From Chitinophaga pinensis (GTDB lineage: Bacteria > Verrucomicrobiota > Verrucomicrobiia > Limisphaerales > JAEYXS01), in NCBI GenBank assembly GCA_943367715.1, contig CALRJY020000023.1:23264-87263 (forward strand): a DNA stretch of 64,000 nt, given 5' to 3'. Below the pieces are notes generated by a model. It saw only the letters and a program-made list of their open reading frames with translations, made no database searches and was not told the origin of the DNA. Positions 9,127 through 53,798 of the stretch are shown here, one piece after another (the first letter of the stretch is position 1; every line of letters begins with the position of its first letter). Both the position numbers and the translations under genes were made by a program.

Positions 9127-12075
9127 ATGGAATGCCTTAACATCAGCAAGATGCCTGTTTTGAATGTCTTAACCCAGACATCCCGCCCCATTAACGGGCG
9201 TTTGATAGCGTTCATCTTCTGTCTGCTCTTCACGATAGTGACAGCAGCAGAGCCAGTTCGTGTCGAGGTGCTCGCAAAGGACGTTCCAGAAAATCGAGCA
9301 TGGCCGACAAACCAGGTGACGCAGGTGGCAGACAGTTATACAGAGCCAGCGTTCGCTTTCTTTCATCTGCCCTGGCAATACACGTCCACGGGTGTGCGGG
9401 CGGAACGCAGCGGCCCCTTGCTCGTGCGGGCAACATCGACATTCAAACTGCCGGCGGGTAATTATGAGCTGCTGCTGCGGGCGCGGAGTGGTGCGCGTCT
9501 GAGTGTGGATGGCAAAGAACTAGCAGCACTCCCCTTCCCCAAACCGATTGAGGATGGCCATGACGCGGTGCGGACGAATTTCCTGAGCCTTGGTGCTTTC
9601 ACGCGTCAGCGCGCGCCGGGTGATTACGAGATTCTCGTGGAGTTCAGAGCGACGGGCAAGGCGCAGAGGTTTTCATTCGAGACGTTACTGGGCGGCAAAC
9701 GCGGCAAGGATCTCTTACGCGTGGAGCCGGGTGAGACGTTGATCGCGGTGTCGCGAGCCGGGGCGAATGAATTTCATCTGCTCGCGCCGAAGCTGGAGGT
9801 GCCGTTAACAGATGTGGGCTGGGTGAAGTATCGGGCGACACGCGAGGCGGTGTATGATCACATGGAATCGGTGCGACGGGCAGAAGCGCGGGCGGAGCAT
9901 GCGGATTACTGGAACATGCGGCATGAAGTGGCAAGTGCGTTTGTGAAATCGAATCCGGCACCGCAACCGCCAGTCACTTCTCTCGCGAAAAACAATGTGC
10001 TGGACCAGTTCATTTATGCACGCATCGAGCGCGCACAGGCGAACGCGAAAACGCAAACTGGCACAGTGCAGTTTCATCGCGATGTGCTGCCCATTTTGGA
10101 GAAGAATTGTCTCTCGTGCCATGGTGCGAAACCGAAAGGTGGTTTGCGGTTGGACAGCCTGAGCGCAGCTCTTAAGGGCGGTGATTCAGAGGACGCGGGC
10201 ATCGTGGCAGGGCATCCGGAGAAGAGTCCATTCATCCAACGGCTGAATCCAAAGAATGCAGAAGACGTCATGCCACCGAAGGGCGACCGGCTCACTTCGG
10301 CGCAGATCGAAACGCTGTCTCGCTGGGTGAAGGAAGGTGCGGTGTGGCCGGAGGAAGCGCCGATCGCGAATCTGGCGGCGGCTCCACTCACAAGCGATGG
10401 AGAATTCATCCGACGGGTGACATTGGAAACGATCGGGCTCTTCCCCACGGCGGATGAGGTGCGCGAATTCTTAGCTGACAAGCGTAAGGACAAGCGGGCG
10501 CGGTTGATCGAGCGGCTAATGGCAGACCCACGTTGGGCAGATCATTGGGTGGGCTTCTGGCAAGATCTGCTGGCGGAGAACCCCAACCTCGTGAACGCGA
10601 CGCTGAATAACACGGGGCCGTTCCGTTGGTGGATCTACGAATCTTTTCGTGACAATAAGCCGATGGACATGTTCATCACAGAACTCGTCCGCATGGAGGG
10701 TGGTGCGTATGATGGCGGTCCGGCGGGATTCTCGCTCGCGGCTTTGAATGATTCGCCGATGGTCGCAAAGGCGGGCATCATCAGCTCCGCCCTGCTCGCC
10801 ACGGAGATGAAGTGCGCGCGATGCCACGATGCGCCGTATCATCGCAGCACGCAGGCAGATCTGTTTCATCTGGGCGCGATGCTCGCCCAGCAGTCGGTTG
10901 AGGTTCCCAAGACGAGCACGGTGGCATTGGGCAAATTACCGACGGACCGCAAACCGCTCATCCAGGTGACCTTGAAGCCGGGTGACAAGCTGACGCCGGA
11001 ATGGACGTTAAAGAATTTGATGCGGGATGAATTGCCGCCCGGCTTTGTGGAAGCGAATGCAGATTCGCGCACGCGGCTGGCGGCCCTCATCACCGCGCCG
11101 CAGAACGAGCGTTTCGCCGAGGTGATGGTGAATCGCGTGTGGCATCGCTATTTCGGGCGCGGGATCGTGGAGCCGCTGCATGATTGGGAGAACGCGAAGG
11201 CGTCGCATCCGGAAATGCTGAAGTGGCTGGCGCGCGAGTTTGTGAGCCATGATTACGACCTGAAGCATGTAGCGCGACTCATCCTGAATTCGCAGGCGTA
11301 TCAACGGCAGGCGCGCACGGATACGGATGCGAACCGGCTCTTCGCCGCACCGGTAAAACGCCGTCTGAGCGCGGAGCAATTGGTGGATGCGCTCTTCGCG
11401 GCGTATGGGAAAGATTTTGATACAGGGCTGGTGTGCATCGACGTGGATAGTGGCCGCACGCCGCGTCTCGCGCTGAACTTCGGCGAGCCGAATCGGGCGT
11501 GGCAGTTCGTCTATACGGCGAATGACCGTGACCGGCCCAGCTTGAACCTGCCGCGCGCGCAGGTGATCACGGAACTGATGACGGCGTTTGGCTGGGAAGG
11601 CAACCGGCAAGAGCCGATCTCGGTGCGCAAGAACGAAGCGAATCCGCTGCAGCCCGCCCTGCTCGCAAACGGCACGGCGAGCCTATGGATCACGCGACTC
11701 TCGGAAGATTCCGGCATGACGGAACTGGCGCTGAAGAAACAGCCTGTGGAGAAACTGGTGGAAGAAGTTTTCCTGCGCGTGCTGGGGCGGATGCCGAAGG
11801 ATGCTGAACGGGAGAAGTTTGTGGCGCTTTTAAAACCGGGCTATGAACAACGGGTATCAGGGAAGAAAGCGCCGGTCATCGCCGTATCACCTAAGCCTTA
11901 TGTAAGCTGGGCCAATCATGTGGTCGCCGAGGCCAACGTGCTCCGCCAAGTGGAAGAGGTGGAAGCGCGCCAGGGCCCAACACCCACCGTAAGGCTGCAA
12001 GCCGAATGGCGGATGCGCATGGAAGATTTCCTGTGGGCCTTGCTGAATGCGCCGGAAACGATCTATATTCCTTAA
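9127..12075 (+). CDS. PSCyt1/PSCyt2(DUF1549)/PSD1(DUF1553) domain protein
   Basis: Planctomycete-cytochrome-C-like motif LEKNCLSCHGAKPKGGLRLDS. Also RRVTLETIGLFPT..EV..F and MKCARCHDAPYH (DUF1549/DUF1553 hallmarks). It is immediately followed by a DUF1501 gene, which is the usual pairing. Confidence 0.9.
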   Translation: MECLNISKMPVLNVLTQTSRPINGRLIAFIFCLLFTIVTAAEPVRVEVLAKDVPENRAWPTNQVTQVADSYTEPAFAFFHLPWQYTSTGVRAERSGPLLVRATSTFKLPAGNYELLLRARSGARLSVDGKELAALPFPKPIEDGHDAVRTNFLSLGAFTRQRAPGDYEILVEFRATGKAQRFSFETLLGGKRGKDLLRVEPGETLIAVSRAGANEFHLLAPKLEVPLTDVGWVKYRATREAVYDHMESVRRAEARAEHADYWNMRHEVASAFVKSNPAPQPPVTSLAKNNVLDQFIYARIERAQANAKTQTGTVQFHRDVLPILEKNCLSCHGAKPKGGLRLDSLSAALKGGDSEDAGIVAGHPEKSPFIQRLNPKNAEDVMPPKGDRLTSAQIETLSRWVKEGAVWPEEAPIANLAAAPLTSDGEFIRRVTLETIGLFPTADEVREFLADKRKDKRARLIERLMADPRWADHWVGFWQDLLAENPNLVNATLNNTGPFRWWIYESFRDNKPMDMFITELVRMEGGAYDGGPAGFSLAALNDSPMVAKAGIISSALLATEMKCARCHDAPYHRSTQADLFHLGAMLAQQSVEVPKTSTVALGKLPTDRKPLIQVTLKPGDKLTPEWTLKNLMRDELPPGFVEANADSRTRLAALITAPQNERFAEVMVNRVWHRYFGRGIVEPLHDWENAKASHPEMLKWLAREFVSHDYDLKHVARLILNSQAYQRQARTDTDANRLFAAPVKRRLSAEQLVDALFAAYGKDFDTGLVCIDVDSGRTPRLALNFGEPNRAWQFVYTANDRDRPSLNLPRAQVITELMTAFGWEGNRQEPISVRKNEANPLQPALLANGTASLWITRLSEDSGMTELALKKQPVEKLVEEVFLRVLGRMPKDAEREKFVALLKPGYEQRVSGKKAPVIAVSPKPYVSWANHVVAEANVLRQVEEVEARQGPTPTVRLQAEWRMRMEDFLWALLNAPETIYIP

Positions 12076-12081
12076 CGAGCC

Positions 12082-13383
12082 ATGATGTCTGGATTGAGCA
12101 ATAATTTGTCACGGCGCGAGTTCCTCAAGTGGGGCGGGCGCTCAGCAGCGGCGGCGGCGATGAATTTGCTACCGAGCGTGATGGGGTCTGCGGCGGCGAA
12201 TTTCCCGAAGGGCAAAGCGGAGCACTGCATCTTCATGTGGCTCGGCGGCGGGATGTCACAGATCGACACATTTGACCCAAAGAAGCGCGGGAATCCAAAG
12301 ACCAAGCAGGCGGGCACGGATTACGACGTGATCTCCACCACTGTGCCCGGTGTGAAGGTGACGGAGCATTTGCCAAACGCGGCGAAGGTGATGGACCGGC
12401 TCACGCTCTTGCGCACCTGCACGCATTCCACGGTGGATGAACACGCGACGGCCACGCACTTCGTGCACACGGCGCGGCAGTTCAGCGAGACGATCCGCTA
12501 TCCCAGTATAGGAAGCATCGTGGCGCATGAGCTGGGGCAGACTTCACCAACGGCTCCGGCGTATGTGGTCATTGGATATCCGAGCACGTCACGTGATCCA
12601 GGCTTCCTCGGACCGAAGCATGGTTACCTGTATCTGACGGATACAGAAGCGGGACCGAATGGTTTCGTGCGGCACTCGGGCGTGGATAATATACGGCAGG
12701 CGAGGCGCGAACAGTTACTTGCGGAAGTGCGTCAATCGACGCCGGATGATTCGGCCACGCGGCAATACAACGAAGTCATCGAACAAAGCCTGAAACTGGC
12801 GGGGCCGGATTTCATGCGCCTCTTTCAATTGAAGGAAGAGCGGGCGGAGTTGCGCAACCAATATGGCGGGGAATTCGGCCAGCGTTGTCTATTGGCACGG
12901 CGTCTGGTGGAGAACGGCGTGCGGTTTGTGGAGGTCTCGCACAACCTGAATTTCATCAACGGCACCGGCTGGGATACGCACAATGAAGGGCAGCTCAAGC
13001 AATACATGCTGATCCAGGAACTGGACCATGCGCTGGCAACGCTCGTGACGGATCTGGAGCAGCGTAAACTACTCGACAAGACGCTCGTGGTCGTAGGAAC
13101 GGAATTCGGGCGTCCGCCGGAGTTCGATGCGGGTGGCGGGCGCGGCCATCAGTCCAAGTGCTTCACACTAGTGATGGCAGGAGGCGGATTAAAACATGGA
13201 CGTGCGCATGGGGAATCCGATGAGTTATCCAAAAAGATCCTGACGAATCCAGTGACGATGCCCGATTTCCACGCAACGATTTGCGCTGCGCTGGGAATCA
13301 ATCCAGGCAAGGAACTCTACGACAGCACCCGTCCGGTGCCCATCACGGATGGCGGAAAGCCGGTTGCCGAGTTGTTCGGCTGA
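12082..13383 (+). CDS. DUF1501 (sulfatase-like) protein with a Tat signal
   Basis: Twin-arginine-like N-terminus SRREFLKWGGRSAAAAA. Also WLGGGMSQIDTFDPK, GTEFGR and GRGH motifs. Confidence 0.9.
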   Translation: MMSGLSNNLSRREFLKWGGRSAAAAAMNLLPSVMGSAAANFPKGKAEHCIFMWLGGGMSQIDTFDPKKRGNPKTKQAGTDYDVISTTVPGVKVTEHLPNAAKVMDRLTLLRTCTHSTVDEHATATHFVHTARQFSETIRYPSIGSIVAHELGQTSPTAPAYVVIGYPSTSRDPGFLGPKHGYLYLTDTEAGPNGFVRHSGVDNIRQARREQLLAEVRQSTPDDSATRQYNEVIEQSLKLAGPDFMRLFQLKEERAELRNQYGGEFGQRCLLARRLVENGVRFVEVSHNLNFINGTGWDTHNEGQLKQYMLIQELDHALATLVTDLEQRKLLDKTLVVVGTEFGRPPEFDAGGGRGHQSKCFTLVMAGGGLKHGRAHGESDELSKKILTNPVTMPDFHATICAALGINPGKELYDSTRPVPITDGGKPVAELFG

Positions 13384-15924: not shown

Positions 15925-16866
15925 ATGGATGAATTGAATAAAGTACCAGCACCCTGCACGGAACGCGCAGAGGCGTTGCTAGGGCCGATTGAATGGATCG
16001 ACGCAACCAGAGGCTATTTGCCATGCCCAGGCCAGCACCTTCATACGAGCCGAAACGGCCGTCGTGATTGCGTGGTCTATCTGGACCATGCCCCTACACT
16101 CCATTGTCTGCATGGAAGTTGTCATAACGAGTTAGAGGAGAAGAATACGGAATTGCGTCGAATCCTGGCTCAAAGCGGTGAGCTGAAGCCACAGCGAATG
16201 ACCGCTGAGCAGAAGAAGCAGATGGAAGAGAACCGGCGACGCAACGGAATACGCAAGCGAGCTGCGGAATCACGCGAACGGATACTTGCCAGTCATCGTT
16301 GGCCGGTGGCGGAGATTGTTAAGGCATCTGCCGTAGATCTGCCAACCGATGCCAGCAGGCATGCTCACCTGATGTTGCAGAGGTTTCACCCAGATGATGT
16401 AGTGTGGATAGGCGACAAGTATGATTCAGGCAAACCCGAGCACACCAAGCACTTCAAGACGAGTCGTGAGTGGCTTGACAACGAACAGATTGACGGCCCC
16501 CTGCTCTGCCCGTCCACGTTCAAACCAGGGTCCTATCAACGTGCGAACGAGCAAATTGCTGCCCGCCGATTTCTCGTGGTCGAATCCGACACCCTCGGCA
16601 AGGACGCAGTGGGAGCAGTCTTTCGCTGGTTAACAGACGAGGTTAAGCTAAACCTAGCCGCTATTGTCGATACAGCCGGAAAAAGCCTCCACGCTTGGTT
16701 CTACCAGCCGGCAACAGAGGTGGTCGAAGATCTAAAGCTGGTTTTGCCAGAGATTGGATGTGATCCGAAACTCTTCACTCCGTCTCAGCCGGTACGCCTT
16801 CCGGGCGCTTTAAGAGACGGTCGATGGCAGAAACTGGTTTATCTAGGAAAGGAGAACACGATATGA
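15925..16866 (+). CDS. Primase-like protein (Cys/His zinc motif plus AEP/Prim-Pol-like motifs)
   Basis: CPGQHLHTS...CLHGSCHNE looks like a zinc-binding cluster. FLVVESD and DTAGKSLHAWF resemble the acidic and sGxxxH motifs of archaeo-eukaryotic-type primases. The stop overlaps the start of the helicase gene (ATGA). The family assignment is tentative. Confidence 0.5.
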   Translation: MDELNKVPAPCTERAEALLGPIEWIDATRGYLPCPGQHLHTSRNGRRDCVVYLDHAPTLHCLHGSCHNELEEKNTELRRILAQSGELKPQRMTAEQKKQMEENRRRNGIRKRAAESRERILASHRWPVAEIVKASAVDLPTDASRHAHLMLQRFHPDDVVWIGDKYDSGKPEHTKHFKTSREWLDNEQIDGPLLCPSTFKPGSYQRANEQIAARRFLVVESDTLGKDAVGAVFRWLTDEVKLNLAAIVDTAGKSLHAWFYQPATEVVEDLKLVLPEIGCDPKLFTPSQPVRLPGALRDGRWQKLVYLGKENTI

Positions 16867-18284
16867 GCACCGTAACAAACGCATTGCCGTTGCCAGAACT
16901 CTACTACCACTCGATTGACGGTTCCTATTGGGCAATCGACGACAGTGGCAAGTGGATTAAGATCAACGAAAGATCTGCGATGTTGGCCATCCGCGATGCC
17001 GGATACGATCAGAAGGGTGGAGGTAACATATCGGATGCGGAACGCTGCTTGAGATCCATTCAGCGCCAGCAAAACGTCGGATATGCCGGTCCACTTGCTG
17101 GGTATCAGGCCGGACACTACCGAATCGAGGAAAATGATGTGTTGGTAACCGAGAGTCCAAAGTTGATTGAACCCAAATCAGGTGACTGGCCCACACTAAA
17201 GAGCCTGTTTGAAGCCATGTTCGCTGACCCTGAGCATGATCAGTTGCCTTATTTCTACGGTTGGCTCAAGCGGTCGATGGAAACGATGCGCGATGGCCGT
17301 TGGACTCCCGGTCAAGTTCTGGCAATGGCAGGTCCCGTAGGCTCAGGCAAGTCGCTTACCCAACAGTTGATCACCAAGCTGCTCGGTGGACGTAGCGCGA
17401 AACCATATCAGTACATGATCGGGAGCACTCCATTCAACGGCGACCTATTCAGAGCCGAACACCTCATGGTGGAGGACGAAGCAGAGTCCTCGGATATCAG
17501 GGCGCGGAGGCATTTCGCAGCGAACATTAAAGCCACAGCAGTGAATAAAACACACCATTGCCATGGGAAACACAAACAAGCACTCACACTGACCCCGATC
17601 TGGCGCATGACTGTCAGCCTGAACGATGATCCTGATCGCCTGGATGTATTGCCACCACTGGATGACGACGTCGCAGACAAAATCATCCTGCTGAGGGTTA
17701 CCCCCTGCACCATGCCGATGCCAACCAACACGCCAGAAGAACAAGACGCGTTCTGGCAGAAGCTGATCGAGGAGCTGCCTGCTTTTGCGGCATTCCTAGC
17801 CGAATGGAAGATACCGGAAAATCTCCGTAGCCCCCGGTTCGGGATCACCCACTTCCATCACCCAACCTTCGTGGAGGTTTTGCGGTCGTCCACGCCTGAA
17901 CAACGCCTGCTGGAGTTGATTGATGCAGCCAACATATTTGAGGTCCGCACTGGCTTGGCAACGTCGTCACGTGAAATTGCTGTTTGGGAAGGGACCGCAC
18001 TGCGCTTGGAACAGACGCTAACTCGAGAGTCTAGTCCCGTGAAGGCACAAGCCGCCAAGTTGCTGACAAACCTGAATAGGTGCGGCACTTACCTTGGTCG
18101 GTTGGCACACCTCCCCGCCGAAGCTGGAGGGCGGGTTAACAGCAGATTGGTGAATGGGCAACGAATCTGGGTAATCCAGCCGCCGCCCCAACAAAATCGA
18201 TTACCAGCCGAACCAACGATTATTGCAACTGAGGCAGAAGGCAGGCCACCTATGCCACCAGCCAGCCTAGCTCTGGCTGCATAA
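16824..18284 (+). CDS. SF3-type (P4/D5-like) P-loop helicase
   Basis: Walker A MAGPVGSGKS and Walker B HLMVEDE. The protein is about 470 aa and sits directly after a primase-like gene. The likely start is the ATG at 16863 (MSTVTNALP), which overlaps the upstream stop. Confidence 0.7.
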   Translation: MAETGLSRKGEHDMSTVTNALPLPELYYHSIDGSYWAIDDSGKWIKINERSAMLAIRDAGYDQKGGGNISDAERCLRSIQRQQNVGYAGPLAGYQAGHYRIEENDVLVTESPKLIEPKSGDWPTLKSLFEAMFADPEHDQLPYFYGWLKRSMETMRDGRWTPGQVLAMAGPVGSGKSLTQQLITKLLGGRSAKPYQYMIGSTPFNGDLFRAEHLMVEDEAESSDIRARRHFAANIKATAVNKTHHCHGKHKQALTLTPIWRMTVSLNDDPDRLDVLPPLDDDVADKIILLRVTPCTMPMPTNTPEEQDAFWQKLIEELPAFAAFLAEWKIPENLRSPRFGITHFHHPTFVEVLRSSTPEQRLLELIDAANIFEVRTGLATSSREIAVWEGTALRLEQTLTRESSPVKAQAAKLLTNLNRCGTYLGRLAHLPAEAGGRVNSRLVNGQRIWVIQPPPQQNRLPAEPTIIATEAEGRPPMPPASLALAA

Positions 18285-18558: not shown

Positions 18559-19326
18559 ATGAGTATGGCATTGATCACACCACCGCCCTGTCCGCCAATG
18601 GAGCCCTACCCTACTGCTGCCTCGGTCAGGTGGATTGAGGAAGTCCACAACATCAACGAGGTGGCTACCCTGAACTGGCTTGCTGAGTTAGGTAAGGTGC
18701 TGTTTCGTGACCGCAACCACACTGATTGGCTCACGCCTGAGGAAGTCATGCGATTGGCTGAGAGCAACAATGTCGAATTCAAAGGCACCAAGCCGATGTT
18801 CCTCAACTGGCTGGTCTGGACACTGATGGAGTGGGCACGCCGTCGAACGTCACTGCGCGTCGAGTCAACCATCGTCTTGGTACAGCGTGATCTCCAACCG
18901 GAAGGTTACCAAGTCAGTTGCCGCTTAATCCAACTCCAGCCCGAACACATCGAAATAACCTTCACGACGCCATTAAAAACACTAACCAGCAACCAGTCTG
19001 CTTCGACACAACTCGTTGAAAAACAGCAATCAGCTGCAAAAAGCGATGCCTCCGATTCCTTCAGGGCGAAGGAGTCTAATTTTCACAACTCGTTCATTCC
19101 GAGTACATTGCAAAAACCACCCGTGTCAAATAAGCACACAAATGGCAACATGCTACCCCCACCACATTTTTGGCCAGATCAATACGCAGCCACCCATCTA
19201 AACCACGGGAAGCTGAGTTGCCTTGTCGAGCCAACCGTTTCGCAGGGGATTGATTCGTTCAGCTTGTCCAGCAGCCCAAGCCAGCCAACGTTCAGTCGAT
19301 TCCTGTCCCTTACCCCCAACCAATGA
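18559..19326 (+). CDS. Hypothetical protein (255 aa); low-complexity C-terminal half
   Basis: ORF only. Its last 129 nt overlap the convergent gene 19198-20355, so its 3' extent is doubtful. Confidence 0.35.
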   Translation: MSMALITPPPCPPMEPYPTAASVRWIEEVHNINEVATLNWLAELGKVLFRDRNHTDWLTPEEVMRLAESNNVEFKGTKPMFLNWLVWTLMEWARRRTSLRVESTIVLVQRDLQPEGYQVSCRLIQLQPEHIEITFTTPLKTLTSNQSASTQLVEKQQSAAKSDASDSFRAKESNFHNSFIPSTLQKPPVSNKHTNGNMLPPPHFWPDQYAATHLNHGKLSCLVEPTVSQGIDSFSLSSSPSQPTFSRFLSLTPNQ

Positions 19327-20355
19327 CAACCGGCATGCCTCCACAAACCGTTCAATCTCCTCAGCCTTGTGCCAGTTGGTTGATTGATGGCACAGATCCT
19401 CCACACGGCGCTGTTCCTCTTCTCTTCGTTGCTGAGCCAGTCTGTGCAATCGCTCCTGTTCCTCCCATTGCCGGTGCCACTCTTCTCGTTCCAATCGCGC
19501 CAATCTCACTGCCTCACCGGTCGCAACAATCGTTTCAACAATCTCAATGAGGAAATCGTCCAATCGCTGGAACTTGCCATCACTCCAGCTCTTTCGACCG
19601 CCTCTGGGTTCGTATTCATCGATTCGAAACGTCAACCGGCCGTTGGGATGCTCGGTAAACTCTTGTCGACCAAACCGAAATTTCAGCTCTTCAGCAGTCA
19701 GCTCACGTTTCCGTCTTTCCACACCTTCGCTCAACATAATCCGCACTCGATCCACTCCAACCATCACATAGGTCCCCTGTTTATCCCCGTCAGGACCCAT
19801 AGTTTTGTAGCCACGTCGTTCCAATTCGTTGATCAAAGCGTCCATGATTAGCAACGCCCGTCGCAGCATCGGTTTGCTTGTCAGGACAGCCAAACAGTCT
19901 GCTTGATAGTCTGGATAGATGATACCGCTTTCCCGCGTGTCACCTCGTTCCAAGATGTTTCGGGCAGATCTGACCAGTGGATGAGCCTTACGAAAATCAG
20001 CAGCCAGTTTCAATGTGTTGGCAGCTACTACAGGTTGATCGTCCTTGCTGGCAGTATCCGACTCACTGGCCGGTGCTTTAAGCTGCTGCGTTTCCGGTTT
20101 ACTTCGCTTCTCGACAGGTCGGATAACAATGGGCTCCACGAATCCTTGAGGTGGAGGTGGCAGCGGCGTTCGTTCGACTTCAACCTTCAACCGGCGAAAC
20201 GACCAGTAGTCATTGCCAGGTCTAGGTATCTCACATTCATCACACGCTCGGATAAGGCGATAGCCACTGACGCCTAGCTTCGTGGAGAGATGAGAGATCG
20301 GCGTGGTCCAAACAGCCTCGTACAACTCCTGTCGGGTCATAGTTATTGCTTCCAT
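19198..20355 (-). CDS. Hypothetical protein with an N-terminal HTH-like segment and a charged coiled-coil C-terminus
   Basis: TRQELYEAVWTTPISHLSTKLGVSGYRLIRACDECEIPRPGNDYW is a recurring N-terminal module of uncharacterised bacterial proteins. The C-terminus is rich in RLEREEWHRQWEEQERL. Confidence 0.6.
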   Translation of the reverse strand: MEAITMTRQELYEAVWTTPISHLSTKLGVSGYRLIRACDECEIPRPGNDYWSFRRLKVEVERTPLPPPPQGFVEPIVIRPVEKRSKPETQQLKAPASESDTASKDDQPVVAANTLKLAADFRKAHPLVRSARNILERGDTRESGIIYPDYQADCLAVLTSKPMLRRALLIMDALINELERRGYKTMGPDGDKQGTYVMVGVDRVRIMLSEGVERRKRELTAEELKFRFGRQEFTEHPNGRLTFRIDEYEPRGGRKSWSDGKFQRLDDFLIEIVETIVATGEAVRLARLEREEWHRQWEEQERLHRLAQQRREEEQRRVEDLCHQSTNWHKAEEIERFVEACRLSLVGGKGQESTERWLAWAAGQAERINPLRNGWLDKATQLPVV

Positions 20356-20419: not shown

Positions 20420-20740
20420 TTACCACCACCTGCCATAAGCGACGACGACATCCTCAGCGTCAATTTCCACCTTCTGGAGCACTGCATCATGAAGTGTCGA
20501 TCCTGCTTCGCCCGCTTTCAGCACGTCCGCACATAGGTATTGCCAGAAGGTCACTAGCCGAAGGAAGAAGCATTGCAAGTCATCGACCACCTGGCTGTGT
20601 GCGGTTTCAGCAAAGTTACTTTCGTTGGCGCGCCACTCAGCCCGCCAATTCTTCAGATAGGCATTGAGGCTGCACTGGGTCACGTTACGGTTTCTGTTGA
20701 CCGTTTTGAGGAGCGAGTAGGCCGATACGAATGGTGACAA
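20420..20740 (-). CDS. Hypothetical protein (106 aa)
   Basis: ORF upstream of and co-oriented with 19198-20355, divergent from the RT gene. Confidence 0.4.
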   Translation of the reverse strand: MSPFVSAYSLLKTVNRNRNVTQCSLNAYLKNWRAEWRANESNFAETAHSQVVDDLQCFFLRLVTFWQYLCADVLKAGEAGSTLHDAVLQKVEIDAEDVVVAYGRWW

Positions 20741-20757
20741 TCAGTATCCTTAGCGAG

Positions 20758-20786
20758 TTGACAATGGCCCCGTATCTCCTGAAAAT
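20758..20786 (+). promoter_or_regulatory. Sigma70-like promoter for the RT locus
   Basis: TTGACA (20758-20763), a 17-nt spacer, then GAAAAT (20781-20786). Confidence 0.4.
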
Positions 20787-20792
20787 TTCTCT

Positions 20793-20923
20793 GCCTGGTC
20801 GCGTGAATCGTTGCCCCTTAAAAAGGCAGTCGGTTTTTCAATGCAGGACACAAGTGCACCGAATGCCCCTGCTTAAGGTATCCATTGCGTTCCGAGATTA
20901 CCATCCGCAACCAGGCGTTTTTT
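20793..20923 (+). ncRNA. Candidate structured leader/ncRNA upstream of the RT
   Basis: Long-range stem GCCTGGTCGCG (20793-20803) pairs with CGCAACCAGGC (20906-20916) at 10 of 11 bp, enclosing about 100 nt that contain internal palindromes. T6 (20918-20923) follows directly, 3 nt before the ATG at 20927. Confidence 0.35.
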
Positions 20924-22759
20924 CCAATGTCCTTGGCTGACTATTTTTCTGATGAAGCGTTGATAGCAGCTTTGTGCCGTATACGTATCAAGGAGGCGGA
21001 CAAGGCAGAGAAGGTGGCCAATGGCTTTCATGCACAGCCCGGTCAGCAATTTGAATACATTACGGCTCACTTTCTGCCTCCTCGCCGATTGTGGAATCGA
21101 TACCGCCCGCGTGAGAGAAGCAAATTAGGGTCAACAAAGGTCTCAGAGAAAAGCCTCAAGAGAGCCACTATTCAACTCCGTGCTGGCAATGCTCCATGGG
21201 TCTCGGAATTAAACTGTCTATTGCTACGAGTTCGTCAAAAGGCGCTAGTGTCTGAAAACTTTGCTTTTACAACACCTCATCTGTCACCAGTCCTTAAAAA
21301 AGGTAACGTCTATCGCCCATTGGCCTCCTTTGATCTGGAAGACAAACTCATCGACGGAGCTCTCGCCAAATACTGGAAAGATCAGTTGGATGAATTGTTC
21401 GATCCCGCATCCATGGCTTTTCGCGCCCGTCCAACAGACGGTTCCCCCATGCCCTCTGCTCATATGGCGTTGGACCTCATCTGTGAAAGGCGAGACAGGA
21501 GCCCGAGCGGATCTCTTTACGCGGCCGAATGTGACATTAAAGGGTTCTTCGATTGCGTGGATCATGATGTCGCACGTACGCAACTTCGAAGGCTACTCGA
21601 AGTCAAACAATCCATGAACCCTGCGTTCGTCGTTGAGCCAAGAGCCATACTGCTCTTCGAAGCCTTCTTGGATTGCTATTCGTTTCGGGAGCATGTCCTC
21701 GGAAATTTGCTTCCACGACTCAGACGGTGGAAACCTAAGGCTGAAATTAACTGGCCGGAACCGGATCTTCGTAAGTTGCATGAGGATTTTGATCACGCTC
21801 GCATTGGAGTTCCCCAAGGTGGTGCTCTATCAGGTATCATCGCCAACATCGTCCTCGATTTGGCTGATAAGCGGGTGAGAGAACTCGCCTCAAGCGCACA
21901 GAGTTCTATCAGCTACCTCCGTTATTGTGATGACATGATCATTTTGGCTCAAAGCCGGAAGCAATGCTCTTCAGTCTTTCAGGCCTATCTGGCTACGCTC
22001 AGCCAGTTGAGACTTCCCTACCACGAACCGGTTGCAATCAAGTTCTACGACCGAGCTTTCTGGGAGTTCAAATCCCGTCTCCCTTACCGATGGACAGGGA
22101 AGAAGTGGTTCAACTGCGTGCCGTGGATACAGTTTGTTGGCTATCAGATCCGCTACGATGGATTAGTGCGCATCAGGAAAGAGAGTGAAGCCAAACACAT
22201 TGGACGGGTCATTGAGAAGACTGGCTGGTTCATTAATGCGTTCCTGCCCGGCGAAGCACGTAACAGAGTCGTGGCTCCAATAGCTCCTGATACCCCTTAT
22301 CCGCAAAGAACGGTAGTTGCAGGTCTGTACGGAAGACTCTCATCCATGGCAGTTGGTCGCGCTAACAGCCACCAGGATGTAGAGGGACCTAGACAGATGT
22401 GCTGGGCGGCCGGTTTCAAGGGTTTACACGGAAAGCCATTCGTCGATGGAGTTCTTAGGCGTCTGGACCGCATCAGAGGAAAACAAATCAGTCGTTTCAT
22501 CCACAAACCAATCAGATTTGGCGGTCAACAAAGTGAGTTCCGGCTTTCTGCTAGAGAAGCTAACGAAGATAGCTACCACGCGCAGTTCAGCAACAATGGC
22601 GGTGATGAATTGATCAAGAATCCGTACCAGCCATCTTGGATCGAACAGAAGTTTTTTGAACGGCTGTATCTTTGGCGATTAGCAATCCATTTGAAGAAAA
22701 AAACAGCGGTTGGGAACACACAACACCTCCCGCCTGAAACGCCTGCCGCTCATCAATAA
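20885..22759 (+). CDS. Stand-alone reverse transcriptase (UG/Abi-like candidate)
   Basis: RT motifs: YRPLASFDLEDKLIDGALAKY, ECDIKGFFDCVDH (A), GVPQGGALSGIIANIVL (B), YLRYCDDMIIL (C, YxDD), FVGYQI. The likely start is the ATG at 20927 (MSLADYF). Confidence 0.85.
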   Translation: MRSEITIRNQAFFPMSLADYFSDEALIAALCRIRIKEADKAEKVANGFHAQPGQQFEYITAHFLPPRRLWNRYRPRERSKLGSTKVSEKSLKRATIQLRAGNAPWVSELNCLLLRVRQKALVSENFAFTTPHLSPVLKKGNVYRPLASFDLEDKLIDGALAKYWKDQLDELFDPASMAFRARPTDGSPMPSAHMALDLICERRDRSPSGSLYAAECDIKGFFDCVDHDVARTQLRRLLEVKQSMNPAFVVEPRAILLFEAFLDCYSFREHVLGNLLPRLRRWKPKAEINWPEPDLRKLHEDFDHARIGVPQGGALSGIIANIVLDLADKRVRELASSAQSSISYLRYCDDMIILAQSRKQCSSVFQAYLATLSQLRLPYHEPVAIKFYDRAFWEFKSRLPYRWTGKKWFNCVPWIQFVGYQIRYDGLVRIRKESEAKHIGRVIEKTGWFINAFLPGEARNRVVAPIAPDTPYPQRTVVAGLYGRLSSMAVGRANSHQDVEGPRQMCWAAGFKGLHGKPFVDGVLRRLDRIRGKQISRFIHKPIRFGGQQSEFRLSAREANEDSYHAQFSNNGGDELIKNPYQPSWIEQKFFERLYLWRLAIHLKKKTAVGNTQHLPPETPAAHQ

Positions 22760-26105: not shown

Positions 26106-26450
26106 ATGAAAGAGCCTCATCTATCCGGTTTGTTGCACGCATTACAGCCAGCCTTGAAGAGTCAGAAACGGGCCAAGGAGTTGCTGGAACGCTTCTGGCA
26201 GGACAAACAGGCCATCATCTGGACCACCACGCAAGTTCACCGGGCAGCCAATGAGAACAAGACGGTGCTGACTGAAGTGGATGCTCAAACCATCCTCGGT
26301 GACTTCATCAGCAACCATCATCATCAGTACGGGTTGTGTTTCAGCGACTTGGTGAAAGCCATCGAGGAAAGTGGGTTGGGCCGTAAAATCCTGGCTGAGG
26401 AAACGCGCAACCTGGTTCTCCGTAGCATCCTCACCGTTGATCCACCATGA
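26106..26450 (+). CDS. Hypothetical protein (114 aa)
   Basis: ATG at 26106, directly after the upstream stop at 26104. The stop overlaps the next start. Confidence 0.5.
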   Translation: MKEPHLSGLLHALQPALKSQKRAKELLERFWQDKQAIIWTTTQVHRAANENKTVLTEVDAQTILGDFISNHHHQYGLCFSDLVKAIEESGLGRKILAEETRNLVLRSILTVDPP

Positions 26451-26707
26451 AACCACCGGCTGAGTTCAAAGTGATGCCAGTGCGGGAATGTGCTGGCCTG
26501 CAATCTACCGATCCTCTTACCGGGATCGAGTCACCCACGCCTGATCGCATGTTAAAGATCGAGGAAACGGGTGACTCATGGAAAGGAGTCATCAAACCGA
26601 AGATCCGTTTGATGGGGCGCTGGCTGGATAAAGCTGGATTCAAACCCGGCTCACGCGTGCAAGTCGTTTGCGTAGGTCCGGGAGTGATTCAGTTGCGGTC
26701 CGTCTGA
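26447..26707 (+). CDS. SymE-like / AbrB-fold (SpoVT-AbrB) protein
   Basis: KPKIRLMGRWLDKAGFKPGSRVQVVCVGPGVIQL matches the SymE-toxin pattern P.I.L.G.WL..AGF..G..V.V....G.i.L. Confidence 0.6.
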   Translation: MKPPAEFKVMPVRECAGLQSTDPLTGIESPTPDRMLKIEETGDSWKGVIKPKIRLMGRWLDKAGFKPGSRVQVVCVGPGVIQLRSV

Positions 26708-26835: not shown

Positions 26836-27924
26836 ATGAACGCAGTCTCTGAACTGAAATCCGTCAGTCTCTATTACCGTGAAGGCAGCAGTGACAAGGA
26901 ATACCACGTCCGCATCGAAGAATCTGGCGCTGGCTTCCTCGTCAACTTCGCTTATGGCCGTCGAGGTTCTACCCTCTCCACCGGCACCAAGACTTCCTCA
27001 CCGGTCACTCTTGAAGAAGCTGAGCGCCTCTTCGACAAGCTGGTGAAGGAGAAGAAGGCCAAAGGGTACCGGGAAGGTGAATCCGGCACGCCCTACCACC
27101 AACCCGATGAGGAGGAGAACAAAGAATCCGATATCCACCCGCAATTGCTCAACAGTGTGGATGAAGCGGAAGTCGAACGGCTCCTTGATGATCCGAACTG
27201 GTTCATGCAGGAGAAGCTCGATGGACGCCGGATGCTGCTCGAAAAGACAGGGCGCATGATCATTCCCATCAACAAGAAGGGTTTTGCCATCAGTGCAGCC
27301 GTCACCATCCTGCAATCGGCCGAGAACCTGAAACATGACTGCGTGCTCGATGGAGAGTGCATCGGTGACTACTACTACGCCTTCGATCTCTTGGAGCTGA
27401 AAGGTGAAGACCTCCGTCCCCAGCCATTCGAGAAGCGTTATATCGCCCTGCTCAACCTGTTTGGCGCTTCCCAAATGCGTCATATCCGGCTGGTTGGCTG
27501 TGAAATATCCCGCAAACGTCCCGTGTTCAACGAGCTGAAGGCCAAACGAGCCGAAGGCGTCGTGTTCAAGGACAAGCGTGCGCCCTACGTTGCCGGTCGT
27601 CCAAACAGTGGTGGTACGCAGTTGAAGCACAAGTTCGTAGCTTCCCTGTCTGCCGTCGTCACCACCATCAATGCCCAGCGCAGCGTCACTGTTAGCCTCC
27701 TGGACACCAATACTGGCTGGCATGAAGCTGGCAATGTCACTATCCCGGCCAACCACAAGGTTCCGGCATGTGGCACGGTGGTGGAAGTCCGCTATCTCTA
27801 CGCCTTCACCCAATCCCGCAAGGTGTTCCAGCCGGTCTATCTGGGTGAGCGCAAGGACGTGGATCAGATCGAATGCACCGTGACCCAGCTCAAGTTCAAG
27901 CCTGAGGAGGATGAACGTGAGTAG
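26836..27924 (+). CDS. WGR domain fused to an ATP-dependent DNA ligase
   Basis: The N-terminal ~80 aa (YYREGSSDKEYHVRIEESGAGFLVNFAYGRRGSTL...KLVKEKKAKGYRE) are WGR-like. They are followed by the ligase adenylation motif I EKLDGRRMLL, then GVVFKDKRAPYVAGRP and LKHK. Confidence 0.8.
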   Translation: MNAVSELKSVSLYYREGSSDKEYHVRIEESGAGFLVNFAYGRRGSTLSTGTKTSSPVTLEEAERLFDKLVKEKKAKGYREGESGTPYHQPDEEENKESDIHPQLLNSVDEAEVERLLDDPNWFMQEKLDGRRMLLEKTGRMIIPINKKGFAISAAVTILQSAENLKHDCVLDGECIGDYYYAFDLLELKGEDLRPQPFEKRYIALLNLFGASQMRHIRLVGCEISRKRPVFNELKAKRAEGVVFKDKRAPYVAGRPNSGGTQLKHKFVASLSAVVTTINAQRSVTVSLLDTNTGWHEAGNVTIPANHKVPACGTVVEVRYLYAFTQSRKVFQPVYLGERKDVDQIECTVTQLKFKPEEDERE

Positions 27925-33661: not shown

Positions 33662-33945
33662 AACCAATAACACGGGTTTGGACGTTCCCCTCAGACTCCA
33701 ACCCCTCAACCGAATACCAGACTTTGCAGTACAGCGATGGGTCCACCTCCTGTAACTGCAAAGGCTGGACCCGTCGCACTGCCCTAGACGGTTCACGCTC
33801 CTGCAAACATACCCGGCTGGTGGATATGAACCGGGCAGACAGTCAATGTTCTGCCTCCCGTTACTACCGACCACAACCCCCTAAACCGAATGCCCAAACC
33901 AAAATCAAAACCGTCAGACTCGGTCAACGCCGTATTGTTGTCTGA
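33658..33945 (+). CDS. SWIM-type zinc-finger protein
   Basis: ATG at 33658 (MKPITRVW). CNCKGWTRRTALDGSRSCKHTRL fits CxCx(n)CxH. The track ORF 33625-33945 is this frame extended upstream. Confidence 0.6.
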   Translation: MKPITRVWTFPSDSNPSTEYQTLQYSDGSTSCNCKGWTRRTALDGSRSCKHTRLVDMNRADSQCSASRYYRPQPPKPNAQTKIKTVRLGQRRIVV

Positions 33946-40731: not shown

Positions 40732-40749
40732 GGGTGAGGCGGGCGACGC

Positions 40750-42021: not shown

Positions 42022-42022
42022 C

Positions 42023-53348: not shown

Positions 53349-53369
53349 AGGGTTTAATTCAAAGTGTGT

Positions 53370-53654
53370 TTATATACGGGGGCGCGGTCAATGAGCGTGC
53401 CAATTTTCCGGGCGTCGATGAAGAGGGTCTGCTGGCGGCGGTCGCGGAAGCCGCGTTTGGCGGCGGCGGCTTTGTTCGTCTTTGCGGAACCAGTTGGAGT
53501 CTTTGAAGGGCGGGTAAGCAAGGAAGTGGTCGGTGTGCTGATCTGGATTAAGGTTGCGCTGCGTGTGCGCCATCAGCCAGTGCTTGGCTTCAAAGCCAAA
53601 ATTGGCGGGTTCAATGCCTGCTGTTTTACGTCCCATAGCGGTAAAGCTTTCCAA
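53370..53654 (-). pseudogene. Relic hsdM (N-terminal ~50 codons joined, out of frame, to a C-terminal piece)
   Basis: One frame reads GIEPANFGFEAKHWLMAHTQRNLNPDQHTDHFL (HsdM_N-like, degenerate). Another frame reads RDRRQQTLFIDARKIGTLIDR, which is the conserved HsdM C-terminal block (vLFIDArk.gt..dR). Confidence 0.55.
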
Positions 53655-53798
53655 GCTAAATAGCTATTTCAGCTTGCAACAACAAGCCTCCATTTTCTAA
53701 AGAGTGGCAAATCCACCCTCATGTCCGTTGTGGTCAACGCGGTTTGCCAGCAAGCAATAGTTTGGCAGACAGATCAAGGCCGGGTTGCTCAATCTGAG

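What the first reader, a model, noticed from the sequence alone, without database searches (positions are those of the whole stretch)
20758..22759. Stand-alone ~610-aa reverse transcriptase preceded by a promoter and a ~130-nt structured, U-tract-terminated leader
All catalytic RT motifs are intact, including YCDD. I could not see a maturase X or endonuclease domain, or group II intron RNA features. The protein is about twice the size of retron RTs. Its size and single-gene layout resemble UG/Abi-class defence RTs (AbiA/AbiK/DRT types). The leader is closed by a 10/11-bp long-range helix (20793-20803 with 20906-20916) and followed by T6 immediately before the ATG. Several defence RTs (retrons, DRT2, DRT9) template cDNA from an adjacent ncRNA, so this leader is a candidate template or regulatory RNA. 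Neighbouring genes are unknowns (20420-20740 and 19198-20355, divergent) and an XRE regulator (convergent).
Basis: partly seen in the sequence, partly recalled or inferred. Interest (0 to 1): 0.65.

Follow-up and report, generated by a model that had tools for sequence, protein, structure and literature searches.

The report
UG39 reverse transcriptase with conserved ncRNA
The gene is a member of the named but unstudied UG39 group of bacterial reverse transcriptases. The 124-base leader in front of it is a conserved, structured RNA not described in the Rfam release or the papers I could search, found upstream of this enzyme family in several phyla and most likely its RNA partner.

Summary
A 610-aa RT (20927-22759, YCDD at 21923-21934) follows a sigma-70-like promoter (20758-20786) and a 124-nt RNA closed by the reported 10/11-bp helix (20793-20916).

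The RT is a full-length match to PADLOC RT_UG39 (E = 6.5e-129). UG39 is a Class 2 UG/Abi group that was split from UG28/DRT9, and its defence role and RNA partner are unknown. Its AlphaFold model is closest to the DRT9 RT structures.

The leader is conserved from the -35 box to the ATG in all six close homologues, whose sequence further upstream differs in most of them. It has one architecture: P1, P2, P3 with an AnnnAAGU loop and a likely pseudoknot, a variable P4, and an AUUAnnU linker. Compensatory changes support this in two clades: 84-89% of cells paired against 30-49% for slid controls.

Two covariance models hit only the strand and position just upstream of UG39 RT genes. The 5'-half model gave 49 hits in 99 loci and none elsewhere. 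Rfam has no match.

Best reading: an RT-ncRNA particle of the DRT9/DRT10 type, with an invariant C-terminal Ser-Tyr as the candidate protein primer. It sits on a mobile element next to CBASS, type I R-M and Gabija. The template, product and defence function are inferred, not shown.

The parts
20758..20786 (+). Sigma-70-like promoter: -35 TTGACA 20758-20763, 17-nt spacer, -10 GAAAAT 20781-20786. The predicted start is about 20793, the first base of P1.
   Evidence: The -35 box is invariant in 7 close loci and present in L001, L049 and L127. In most of the close loci, similarity to the window ends just upstream of it (L041 shares about 70 nt more).
20793..20916 (+). Conserved structured ncRNA (124 nt) bounded by helix P1.
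   Evidence: Conservation and covariation. Covariance-model hits only upstream of UG39 RTs. z = -2.1. No Rfam match. No conserved reading frame.
20793..20803 (+). P1 5' strand: P1a GCCUGGU 20793-20799, C20800 (opposite A20909), P1b GCG 20801-20803. Part of the family-wide anchor GGUCGCG.
   Evidence: P1a shows many compensatory changes: CG 14 / AU 10 / GC 2 at one pair, and CG 17 / UA 10 at the next.
20805..20836 (+). P2 hairpin, variable in sequence and length.
   Evidence: The stem changes completely in L044 and L046 while staying paired. In the Verrucomicrobia-type clade, 4 of 6 pairs have changes on both sides.
20843..20872 (+). P3 hairpin: GCAGG 20843-20847 pairs with CCUGC 20868-20872. 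The conserved 5' loop motif ACACAAGUG is at 20848-20856 (family consensus A-nnn-AAGU).
   Evidence: The motif with its stem is found in 43 of 99 upstream regions against 4.6% of control windows. A.GU and the 3' CC are invariant in 31 diverse sequences.
20858..20879 (+). Probable pseudoknot: ACC 20858-20860 (P3 loop) pairs with GGU 20877-20879.
   Evidence: The pairing is kept in 7 of 7 close homologues. It extends to GUACC/GGUAC in L044 and changes to GCGCC/GGCGU in L046. One Verrucomicrobia-type subtype has an analogous CCCGAAC/GUUCGGG pairing (helix 4). No RNA-level test was done.
20896..20904 (+). J4/1 linker GAUUACCAU (family consensus (G)AUUAnnU, directly before CCGC). Candidate template.
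   Evidence: Its position matches the DRT10 template loop. This is inference only.
20906..20916 (+). P1 3' strand: CGC 20906-20908, A20909, ACCAGGC 20910-20916. Part of the anchor CCGCAACC.
20918..20923 (+). T6 tract between P1 and the start codon.
   Evidence: Only loosely conserved, and not flagged as terminator-like.
20927..22759 (+). UG39 reverse transcriptase, 610 aa. YCDD is at 21923-21934. The invariant C-terminal-tail motif S549-Y550-x-x-Q-F is at 22571-22588.
15925..18284 (+). Primase-like gene (15925-16866) and DUF5906 P-loop gene (16824-18284). This is the replication module of the surrounding mobile-element-like block and a possible counterpart of the VirE+PriCT-2 partner reported for UG39.
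   Evidence: The same pair lies 4-6 kb upstream of the RT in L040, L041 and L046. Membership of the RT system itself is unproven.

Best explanation
The locus encodes a two-part RT-ncRNA system of the Class 2 UG/Abi type.

**Proposed mechanism**
- Transcription from the promoter at 20758-20786 starts at or near the first base of P1. It yields a 124-nt RNA that folds into a P1-closed multi-helix structure directly in front of the RT start codon.
- The UG39 RT binds this RNA as a scaffold.
- By analogy with its nearest characterised relatives, DRT9 (UG28) and DRT10 (UG17), the RT copies a short single-stranded segment of the RNA repeatedly into DNA.
- Synthesis is primed from a hydroxyl of the RT's own C-terminal tail; the candidate residue is Tyr550 of the invariant Ser-Tyr.
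- The most likely template is the AU-rich linker J4/1 (GAUUACCAU, 20896-20904). It lies between P4 and the 3' strand of P1, the same topological position as the DRT10 template loop.
- The product accumulates on phage infection and causes abortive infection or blocks the phage.

**What is shown and what is inferred**
- Shown here: RT family membership, RNA conservation, structure and covariation, the exclusive linkage of the RNA to UG39 RT genes, the invariant C-terminal motif, and the defence-island and mobile-element context.
- Inferred: RT-RNA binding, templating, the identity of the template, protein priming, and the defence function.
For: **RT**
- RT_UG39 at E = 6.5e-129 over the full length. 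Ten diverse homologues score E = 1e-130 to 1e-164.
- RVT_1 is the only Pfam domain.
- The AF2 model has pLDDT 89.4. Six of the seven best Foldseek PDB matches, including the top five, are DRT9 RT-ncRNA complexes (E = 6.6e-15, TM 0.56).

**RNA**
- It is conserved from the -35 box to the ATG in 6 of 6 close homologues; further upstream most of them differ from the window.
- MAFFT-only alignments give 89% paired against 32-45% for slid controls (7 sequences), and 84% against 30-49% (21 sequences). 8 and 16 pairs have changes on both sides, and 0 of 500 shuffles reach the covariation score.
- The same architecture appears in 8 of 8 single-sequence folds, with z from -1.8 to -4.6.
- Model R1 gave 32 non-redundant hits and model R2 gave 49 hits in 99 loci (1.04 Mb). 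All R2 hits and all 32 non-redundant R1 hits are on the RT strand, and no hit lies anywhere other than just upstream of an RT. The weak exceptions are reverse-strand echoes of three true R1 sites and one E = 0.75 R1 hit inside the L077 RT gene.
- A long-range closing helix of at least 9 bp ends within 45 nt of the start codon in 65% of 96 upstream regions, against 13% of controls.
- G-U pairs place the RNA on the RT strand.
- No frame of the leader stays open across the homologues.

**Priming**
- S549-Y550-x-x-Q-F is invariant in 35 of 35 sequences. It sits in the C-terminal tail, and the shortest proteins end just after it.
- DRT9 and DRT10 prime from C-terminal Tyr or Ser.

**Context**
- A CBASS cyclase with a 4TM effector, type I R-M, and GajA/GajB (E = 1e-238 and 1e-281) lie 13-26 kb downstream.

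**Literature**
- Class 2 UG RTs studied so far (DRT2, DRT9, DRT10, Drt3a) all use ncRNA templates.
Against: - There are no expression, binding or cDNA data.
- Mestre et al. 2022 rated defence enrichment for UG39 as inconclusive.
- PADLOC scans of 134 neighbour ORFs from 37 loci show no recurrent partner and only scattered defence genes.
- There is no universally conserved homopolymer tract like that of DRT9. The U5 in J2/3 and the T6 after P1 are not conserved.
- The template cannot be read from the sequence. The repeat signal in J4/1 (46 against 31.6 +/- 4.2; 2 of 2000 shuffles) rests on related sequences and a repeat-like consensus.
- The start codon lies only 10 nt after P1 in the window (about 5-16 nt after the CCGCAACC anchor's P1 strand across the family). 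This fits a purely cis-regulatory leader equally well.
- About half of the family members are not reached by the sequence-based models.
Confidence: 0.55

Rival explanations
1. The leader is only a cis-acting 5' UTR. It controls RT translation or transcript stability, for example by autoregulation when the RT binds it, or by occluding the ribosome site next to P1. It is neither a template nor a scaffold.
For: The start codon lies 10 nt after the 3' strand of P1 in the window. The CCGCAACC anchor ends 13-21 nt before the start in 43 of the 45 anchor-positive loci; the two with weaker anchors lie 4 and 40 nt away. No Shine-Dalgarno sequence is evident. The RNA and the RT share one promoter.
Against: Its sequence and structure are conserved across phyla and down to about 30% RT identity, with invariant single-stranded motifs (AAGU, AUUAnnU, and the C.A mismatch in P1). 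That is more than a simple occlusion hairpin needs. All characterised Class 2 UG relatives use their upstream RNA as a template. The two roles are not exclusive.
Confidence: 0.2
2. The RT and its RNA serve the mobile element that carries them rather than host defence. Examples would be priming or copying element DNA together with the primase/helicase module, or element maintenance.
For: Mestre et al. report a specific association of UG39 with a VirE+PriCT-2 (PrimPol-type) protein and an inconclusive defence score. In the window, a primase-like gene and a DUF5906 P-loop gene lie 2.6-5 kb upstream. The same pair is present in L040, L041 and L046. An AAA_25 helicase lies upstream in 15 distant loci.
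Against: The helicase family is much larger than the RT family among close relatives (738 or more hits), and it occurs without the RT. The genes between helicase and RT differ between loci, as expected for a cargo slot. No UG39 RT was found in IMG/VR or GenBank phages. Defence systems are adjacent in the window.
Confidence: 0.12
3. A retron-like system: P1 plays the role of the a1/a2 inverted repeats. The RT would prime from the 2'-OH of a conserved G next to P1 and copy part of the RNA into multicopy single-stranded DNA.
For: A closing inverted repeat flanks a structured RNA directly upstream of the RT. Conserved G residues lie at the 5' junction, in GGUCGCGUG.
Against: Retron RT models score far below their cutoffs (NF038233 39 bits against 235; PADLOC retron RT E = 5e-8, against 6.5e-129 for UG39). 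The closest structures are DRT9, not retron RTs. No retron-type effector gene is adjacent. No long msd-like hairpin precedes the 3' strand of P1.
Confidence: 0.06
4. A DRT2-like system: rolling-circle reverse transcription around the P1-closed loop builds a concatemeric gene for an effector protein.
For: Drt2 is the second-best PADLOC match (E = 9e-21) and the best PDB sequence match. The RNA is a closed loop.
Against: A stop-free circular reading frame through the P1-enclosed region exists in only 3 of 35 sequences on either strand. Loop length modulo 3 is not conserved. NCBIfam Drt2 scores 66 bits against a cutoff of 390.
Confidence: 0.03

Closest known systems
UG39 group of UG/Abi reverse transcriptases (Class 2; formerly 'UG28b'; Mestre et al. 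2022, PMC9226505)
   Same: The RT matches the RT_UG39 profile over its full length, has no extra domain, and carries an intact YxDD motif. A primase/helicase-type module is nearby.
   Different: The published description gives no ncRNA, no mechanism and an inconclusive defence score. It was built around 15 sequences moved from UG28. Here the family has 577 clusters at 50% identity with E <= 1e-30, and a conserved upstream RNA is defined.
DRT9 (UG28) RT-ncRNA system
   Same: It is the nearest structural relative of the RT. It has an upstream structured ncRNA on the same strand and conserved Tyr in the C-terminal tail. UG39 was originally clustered inside UG28.
   Different: The Drt9 profile scores only E = 1.8e-15. 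The UG39 RNA has 3-4 helices inside P1 plus a probable pseudoknot, whereas the DRT9 RNA is described with stem-loops up to SL6. It lacks the universally conserved poly-U template, so poly-dA is not the expected product.
DRT10 (UG17) RT-ncRNA-SLATT system
   Same: Both are Class 2 RTs. In both, the ncRNA's first helix is formed by pairing of its 5' and 3' ends. In DRT10 the template loop has its 5' boundary at a stem-loop (SL5), and SL1 (the 5'/3'-end helix) helps define its 3' boundary, which matches the position of J4/1 here. DRT10 primes from a C-terminal Ser or Tyr.
   Different: RT_UG17 scores only E = 6.7e-16. No SLATT gene or other fixed effector gene is next to UG39. The UG39 linker is shorter (about 8 nt against 19 nt). 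UG39 proteins are about 150 aa longer.
DRT2 (UG2) RT-ncRNA system
   Same: It is the best sequence match among solved structures over the RT core. It has an upstream ncRNA and is a single-gene system.
   Different: No conserved stop-free concatemer frame exists. The Drt2 family model scores far below its cutoff.

Membership tests
UG39 (Class 2 UG/Abi RT) | Full-length match to the RT_UG39 profile, better than to any other RT group | tested here: met
   E = 6.5e-129, covering residues 3-554 of the protein and positions 2-531 of the 541-position profile. The next best is Drt2 at 9e-21.
UG39 (Class 2 UG/Abi RT) | RT domain with intact catalytic YxDD and no additional known domain (the Class 2 criterion) | tested here: met
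   YCDD at aa 333-336. RVT_1 is the only Pfam family.
UG39 (Class 2 UG/Abi RT) | [quoted passage not shown] | tested here: inconclusive
   A primase-like ORF and a DUF5906 P-loop ORF lie 2.6-5 kb upstream (PHROG 'DNA primase' E = 3e-7 and 6e-4; DUF5906 25.9 bits, below the 27.6 cutoff). There is no VirE or PriCT-2 hit, and homologues carry DUF5906 only. The pair is seen only in the close clade.
DRT9 (UG28) | Membership of the Drt9 RT family by profile | tested here: not met
   PADLOC Drt9 scores E = 1.8e-15, against 6.5e-129 for UG39. The structural similarity is real but distant (TM 0.47-0.56, 12-14% identity).
DRT9 (UG28) | ncRNA with a universally conserved uridine tract that templates poly-dA | tested here: not met
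   The U5 in J2/3 is present in the window, L040 and L041 but is replaced in L043-L046. No U tract is conserved across clades.
DRT9 / DRT10 (Class 2 protein-primed RTs) | Conserved Tyr or Ser in the C-terminal tail that primes DNA synthesis | tested here: inconclusive
   S549-Y550 is invariant in 35 of 35 sequences and lies in the tail. Its priming role and its position relative to the active site were not testable with these tools.
DRT2 (UG2) | Drt2 family model, and an ncRNA whose concatenated cDNA carries a stop-free reading frame | tested here: not met
   NF041746 scores 66 bits against a cutoff of 390. Open circular frames occur in 3 of 35 sequences on each strand.
Retron | Retron-type RT, msr/msd RNA and an adjacent effector | tested here: not met
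   NF038233 scores 39 bits against 235, and NF038237 scores 26 against 450. No effector gene is adjacent. The branching G cannot be tested in silico.
Group II intron RT/maturase | RT/maturase family model plus intron RNA domains | tested here: not met
   TIGR04416 scores 81 bits against a cutoff of 300. There is no group II intron hit or any other Rfam hit in the window.
Any Rfam RNA family | Match at the gathering score | tested here: not met
   There are 0 matches in the window at gathering scores. At E <= 10 in 20600-21100 there are only chance-level hits.

The most novel reading that the evidence does not exclude
The UG39 RT and its RNA form a telomerase-like particle that makes a new kind of short tandem-repeat DNA. 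The repeat would be templated by the conserved AU-rich J4/1 linker, giving (GGTAAT)n or a permutation of it in this organism. Synthesis would be primed on Tyr550 of the RT tail. A pseudoknot next to the conserved AAGU loop would form part of the catalytic core. This would add a fourth distinct product class to Class 2 UG RTs and a second bacterial analogue of the telomerase template/pseudoknot domain.
Probability: 0.2. Interest if true: 0.8.

Novelty: new variant of a known kind. Interest (0 to 1): 0.6.

Why it matters
UG39 is one of the UG/Abi groups for which neither a function nor an RNA partner is known. Every Class 2 relative studied so far (DRT2, DRT9, DRT10, DRT3) has shown a different and unexpected way of making DNA from a small RNA.

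This work defines the UG39 RNA:
- its boundaries, helices and invariant single-stranded motifs;
- a candidate template;
- a candidate priming residue.

It also shows that the RT-RNA pair is widespread in Planctomycetota, Verrucomicrobiota, Acidobacteriota, Proteobacteria, Myxococcota and cyanobacteria. The family holds 577 clusters at 50% identity. The open question "what does UG39 synthesise, and is it a defence system?" becomes directly testable with a 2-kb construct.

The result is not very surprising to a specialist, because workers in the field have predicted that other Class 2 groups carry ncRNAs.

Tried and rejected
- **Group II intron or retron classification.** Rejected by the family-model cutoffs and the absence of any Rfam hit.
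- **DRT2/Neo-type concatemer gene.** No conserved stop-free circular frame.
- **Protein-coding explanation for leader conservation.** No frame stays open across the seven close homologues.
- **P1 plus T6 as an intrinsic terminator.** The scan does not flag it, and the T run is not conserved.
- **Alternative P4 pairing GGUA/UACC.** Fully present only in the window and L041 (3 of 4 pairs in L040), whereas the competing pseudoknot is kept in 7 of 7.
- **Primase/helicase pair as a fixed partner.** tblastn and iterated HMM searches find it only in the close clade.
- **A recurrent neighbour or defence gene.** Clustering of neighbour ORFs and a PADLOC scan of 134 of them gave no universal partner.
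- **nhmmer profile of the 5' half.** Specific (0 off-target hits) but insensitive: 38-40 hits.
- **Viral contigs and phage GenBank.** No UG39 RT found.
- **Distance of Tyr550 from the active site.** Could not be measured, because model coordinates are not exposed.
Full report
**1. Observation**

The + strand ORF listed from the TTG at 20885 to 22759 has its real start at the ATG at 20927.
- All close homologues begin there (MSLADYFSDE / MALADYFSDE).
- The in-frame upstream part lies inside a conserved non-coding element that carries stop codons in the homologues.
- The protein is 610 aa, with YCDD at residues 333-336 (nt 21923-21934).
- The only Pfam domain is RVT_1.

The promoter is TTGACA-17-GAAAAT at 20758-20786.

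The long-range helix is GCCUGGU-C-GCG (20793-20803) pairing with CGC-A-ACCAGGC (20906-20916). It pairs 10 of 11 as reported. The T6 run is at 20918-20923.

Cut exactly at the helix it gives z = -2.1, and seven homologues give -1.8 to -4.6.

**2. What the RT is**

PADLOC gives RT_UG39 at E = 6.5e-129 over essentially the whole protein and profile. Drt2 (9e-21), RT_UG17 (6.7e-16) and Drt9 (1.8e-15) follow far behind.

NCBIfam models for group II intron RT, Drt2, retron RTs and Drt3a all score far below their cutoffs.

Mestre et al. 2022 (PMC9226505) define UG39 as follows:
- It is a Class 2 UG/Abi group that includes 15 sequences previously placed in UG28 ('UG28b').
- It is associated with a VirE+PriCT-2 protein cluster.
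- Its defence prediction is inconclusive.
- No ncRNA is described for it.

The term UG39 occurs in no other relevant paper of the searchable library.

The family is now large:
- 444 proteins at E < 1e-10 in the 90% clusters.
- 577 clusters at 50% identity with E <= 1e-30.
- Nearly all are 560-630 aa.
- Ten diverse members all classify as UG39.

Genome hits come from Verrucomicrobiota, Acidobacteriota, Planctomycetota, Alpha-, Beta- and Gammaproteobacteria (including Methylobacter), Myxococcota (Enhygromyxa), Oligoflexia, cyanobacteria (Dolichospermum, Nostocaceae), Kiritimatiellia and others.

An AlphaFold2 model is confident (pLDDT 89.4, pTM 0.88). Six of its seven best PDB neighbours, including the top five, are DRT9 RT-ncRNA complexes (E = 6.6e-15, TM 0.47 normalised by the query and 0.56 by the target). 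G2L4, GsI-IIC and DRT2 follow. By sequence profile, the best solved relative is DRT2, over the RT core only.

**3. What the leader is**

In six loci encoding RTs 51-86% identical to the window's, the roughly 170 nt before the start codon align from the -35 box to the ATG. Further upstream, most of them are unrelated to the window; L041 shares about 70 nt more.

Compensatory changes are visible by eye:
- The closing helix changes from GCCUGG/CCAGGC to GCCCGG/CCGGGC in L046.
- The P2 stem is entirely replaced in L044 and L046.
- P3 changes from GCAGG/CCUGC to GCGGG/CCCGC.

RNAalifold recovers P1, P2 and P3, with 10 of 28 pairs compensated.

A covariance model built from these seven sequences (R1) then found matches in loci whose RTs are only 35-43% identical.
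- All 32 non-redundant matches are on the RT strand.
- Each ends just before the RT start.

The anchors GGUCGCG ... CCGCAACC occur upstream of the RT in 45 of 113 loci with enough flank. In 43 of these the 3' anchor ends 13-21 nt before the start codon; the two with weaker anchor matches lie at 4 and 40 nt.

Single-sequence MFE folds of 19 representatives, with no comparative input, mostly give the same architecture. Eight folds at exact P1 boundaries all give it. In order, it is:
- P1a (7-12 bp);
- a conserved C.A mismatch;
- P1b (GCG/CGC);
- the P2 hairpin;
- a short J2/3;
- P3, with an asymmetric 5' loop carrying A-nnn-AAGU;
- a variable P4;
- the AU-rich linker (G)AUUAnnU;
- the 3' strands of P1.

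On MAFFT-only alignments, which are not fitted to any structure:

| Alignment | Cells paired | Slid controls | Pairs changed on both sides | Shuffles reaching the covariation score |
|---|---|---|---|---|
| Window clade, 7 sequences | 89% | 32-45% | 8 | 0 of 500 |
| Verrucomicrobia-type clade, 21 sequences | 84% | 30-49% | 16 | 0 of 500 |

Across 32 sequences, P1a alone shows CG 14 / AU 10 / GC 2 at one pair and CG 17 / UA 10 at the next.

A pseudoknot between the P3 loop and the segment after P3 is likely.
- In the window clade, ACC/GGU is kept in 7 of 7. It extends to GUACC/GGUAC in L044 and switches to GCGCC/GGCGU in L046.
- The competing local pairing GGUA/UACC is fully present only in the window and L041, with 3 of its 4 pairs in L040.
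- One Verrucomicrobia-type subtype has a 7-bp CCCGAAC/GUUCGGG equivalent with compensatory variants.
- Another subtype instead closes the loop locally with a UACG tetraloop.

Further evidence that this is an RNA on the RT strand:
- G-U pairs fix the strand as that of the RT.
- No frame of the leader stays open across the homologues.
- Rfam 15 has no match.

**4. How general the RNA is**

A second model of the 5' half (anchor, P2 and P3; 31 sequences from several clades) gave 49 hits at E <= 1 in 99 non-redundant loci (1.04 Mb, both strands). All are on the RT strand and directly upstream of the RT. None lies elsewhere. nhmmer behaved the same way, with lower sensitivity.

The P3 stem plus AAGU motif is in 43 of 99 upstream regions, against 4.6% of control windows.

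A test independent of any sequence motif looked for a long-range closing helix ending within 45 nt of the start codon:

| Contiguous helix length | 96 upstream regions | 636 control windows |
|---|---|---|
| At least 9 bp | 65% | 13% |
| At least 8 bp | 86% | 33% |

This includes the most divergent members, with RTs 28-35% identical.

By eye, the acidobacterial, methylotroph and planctomycete variants keep the same order: GUCGUGUG-type anchor, P2, then GGCGG-A-nnn-AAGUG...CCCGCC. The subtypes not reached by the models were not resolved.

**5. Mechanism**

The literature on the characterised Class 2 relatives gives these points:
- DRT2, DRT9, DRT10 and Drt3a all use an adjacent ncRNA as scaffold and template for repetitive cDNA synthesis.
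- DRT9 and DRT10 prime on Tyr or Ser of the RT's C-terminal tail.
- In DRT10, the first helix is formed by the RNA's 5' and 3' ends. The template loop has a stem-loop (SL5) as its 5' boundary, and the first helix (SL1) helps define its 3' boundary.

UG39 has the matching elements:
- P1 is formed by the two ends of the RNA.
- A conserved single-stranded linker lies between P4 and the 3' strand of P1. In the window it is GAUUACCAU, which reads as AU-UACC-AU.
- A motif S549-Y550-x-x-Q-F is invariant in 35 of 35 sequences. It sits in the tail after a variable basic linker, and the shortest proteins end just after it.

Terminal direct repeats in the linker exceed shuffles (46 against 31.6 +/- 4.2; 2 of 2000). 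The sequences are related and the consensus itself is repeat-like, so this is only a lead.

I therefore propose an RT-ncRNA particle that makes protein-primed, probably repetitive, DNA from J4/1. The conserved P3 loop is the alternative template.

- Tested and rejected: the DRT2/Neo mechanism (a stop-free circular frame in only 3 of 35), and the DRT9 poly-U template (no conserved U tract).
- Not excluded: a purely cis-regulatory role, since the ATG is 10 nt from P1.

**6. Context**

Genes at 9127-13383 are typical planctomycete genes (PSCyt1/2, PSD1, DUF1501).

From about 14 to 31 kb lies a mobile-element-like block:
- a primase-like gene and a DUF5906 P-loop gene (15925-18284);
- the RT;
- an XRE repressor;
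- a J-domain protein;
- a PD-(D/E)XK nuclease;
- a WGR-ATP ligase;
- a DUF3150 protein.

This block is shared in order with L041, and in part with L040 and L046, but with different genes between the helicase and the RT. That pattern suggests a cargo slot.

The helicase family is far larger than the RT family and carries only DUF5906 annotation. The published VirE+PriCT-2 association is therefore neither confirmed nor refuted.

Downstream are the following:
- an IetA-like AAA protein;
- a CBASS cyclase with a 4TM effector;
- a type I R-M system;
- Gabija (GajA E = 4.8e-238, GajB E = 9e-281).

In distant loci, the recurrent neighbours are mobile-element genes such as an AAA_25 helicase in 15 loci. 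Defence genes are scattered and there is no fixed partner.

No UG39 RT occurs in IMG/VR or GenBank phages, and only one occurs in PLSDB.

**7. Verdict**

- The RT is a new member of a known but uncharacterised group.
- The RNA is a real, conserved, structured element specific to that group. As far as Rfam and the searchable literature show, it is undescribed.
- Its existence fits what the field expects of Class 2 UG RTs.
- Its architecture differs from the DRT2, DRT9 and DRT10 RNAs.
- The function remains inferred.

Noticed in passing
window 35545-37343 (-): A two-gene CBASS: a SMODS oligonucleotide cyclase (36471-37343) and an S_4TM effector (35545-36507). Pfam gives E = 1e-85 for the effector, and PADLOC 'Cyclase' and 'Effector 4TM' give up to E = 1e-90.
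   Followed up: partly
window 37570-44623 (-): A complete type I restriction-modification operon: HsdR 37570-40731, HsdS 40750-42021, HsdM 42023-44623.
   Followed up: partly
window 45027-48685 (-): A Gabija system: GajB UvrD-type helicase (45027-46940, E = 9e-281) and GajA ATPase/OLD-TOPRIM (46937-48685, E = 4.8e-238).
   Followed up: partly
window 33890-35440 (+): An AAA+ ATPase with PADLOC IetA-like matches (E = 4e-24). No IetS partner was looked for.
   Followed up: no
window 49647-58076 (-): Two very large ORFs (1233 and 1425 aa) at the edge of the defence island. They have essentially no family match; the only one is a weak PDC-S50 hit at the N-terminus of the first.
   Followed up: no
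window 19198-20355 (-): A 385-aa protein with a coiled-coil C-terminal half and no family match, transcribed divergently from the RT promoter. Homologues occupy the same position in L044 (90%) and L040 (48%). L043 has a similar-sized (389-aa) gene there that did not register as a homologue. L041 and L046 have different genes at that position; the L045 contig has no gene called there. A possible accessory gene for part of the clade.
   Followed up: partly
window 26447-26707 (+) and L041 15066-15278: A small ORF whose L041 homologue carries a weak SymE_toxin (AbrB-fold) hit. It lies between the PD-(D/E)XK nuclease and the WGR-ligase genes of the element.
   Followed up: no
window 26836-27924 (+): A WGR domain fused to an ATP-dependent DNA/RNA ligase, an unusual combination. 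It is conserved in L041 (83% identity).
   Followed up: no
window 20800 and 20909; same positions in 34 homologous RNAs: A C.A mismatch inside P1 is conserved almost without exception (GGU-C-GCG / CGC-A-ACC). The variants are A.A (L057, L063, L114, L125) and a U-A pair (L004). It is probably a recognition feature.
   Followed up: partly
L078 2290-3276; L062 4130-5191; L078 4699-6138: Recurrent genes near distant UG39 loci include a radical-SAM protein (6 loci), a NYN/Zc3h12a-type RNase (8 loci) and an AAA_25 helicase (15 loci, upstream on the same strand).
   Followed up: partly
window 20573-20737 (+) / 20420-20740 (-): The DNA just upstream of the RT promoter is conserved with L041. There it is the 3' end of a called + strand gene (7461-7808).
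   Followed up: partly
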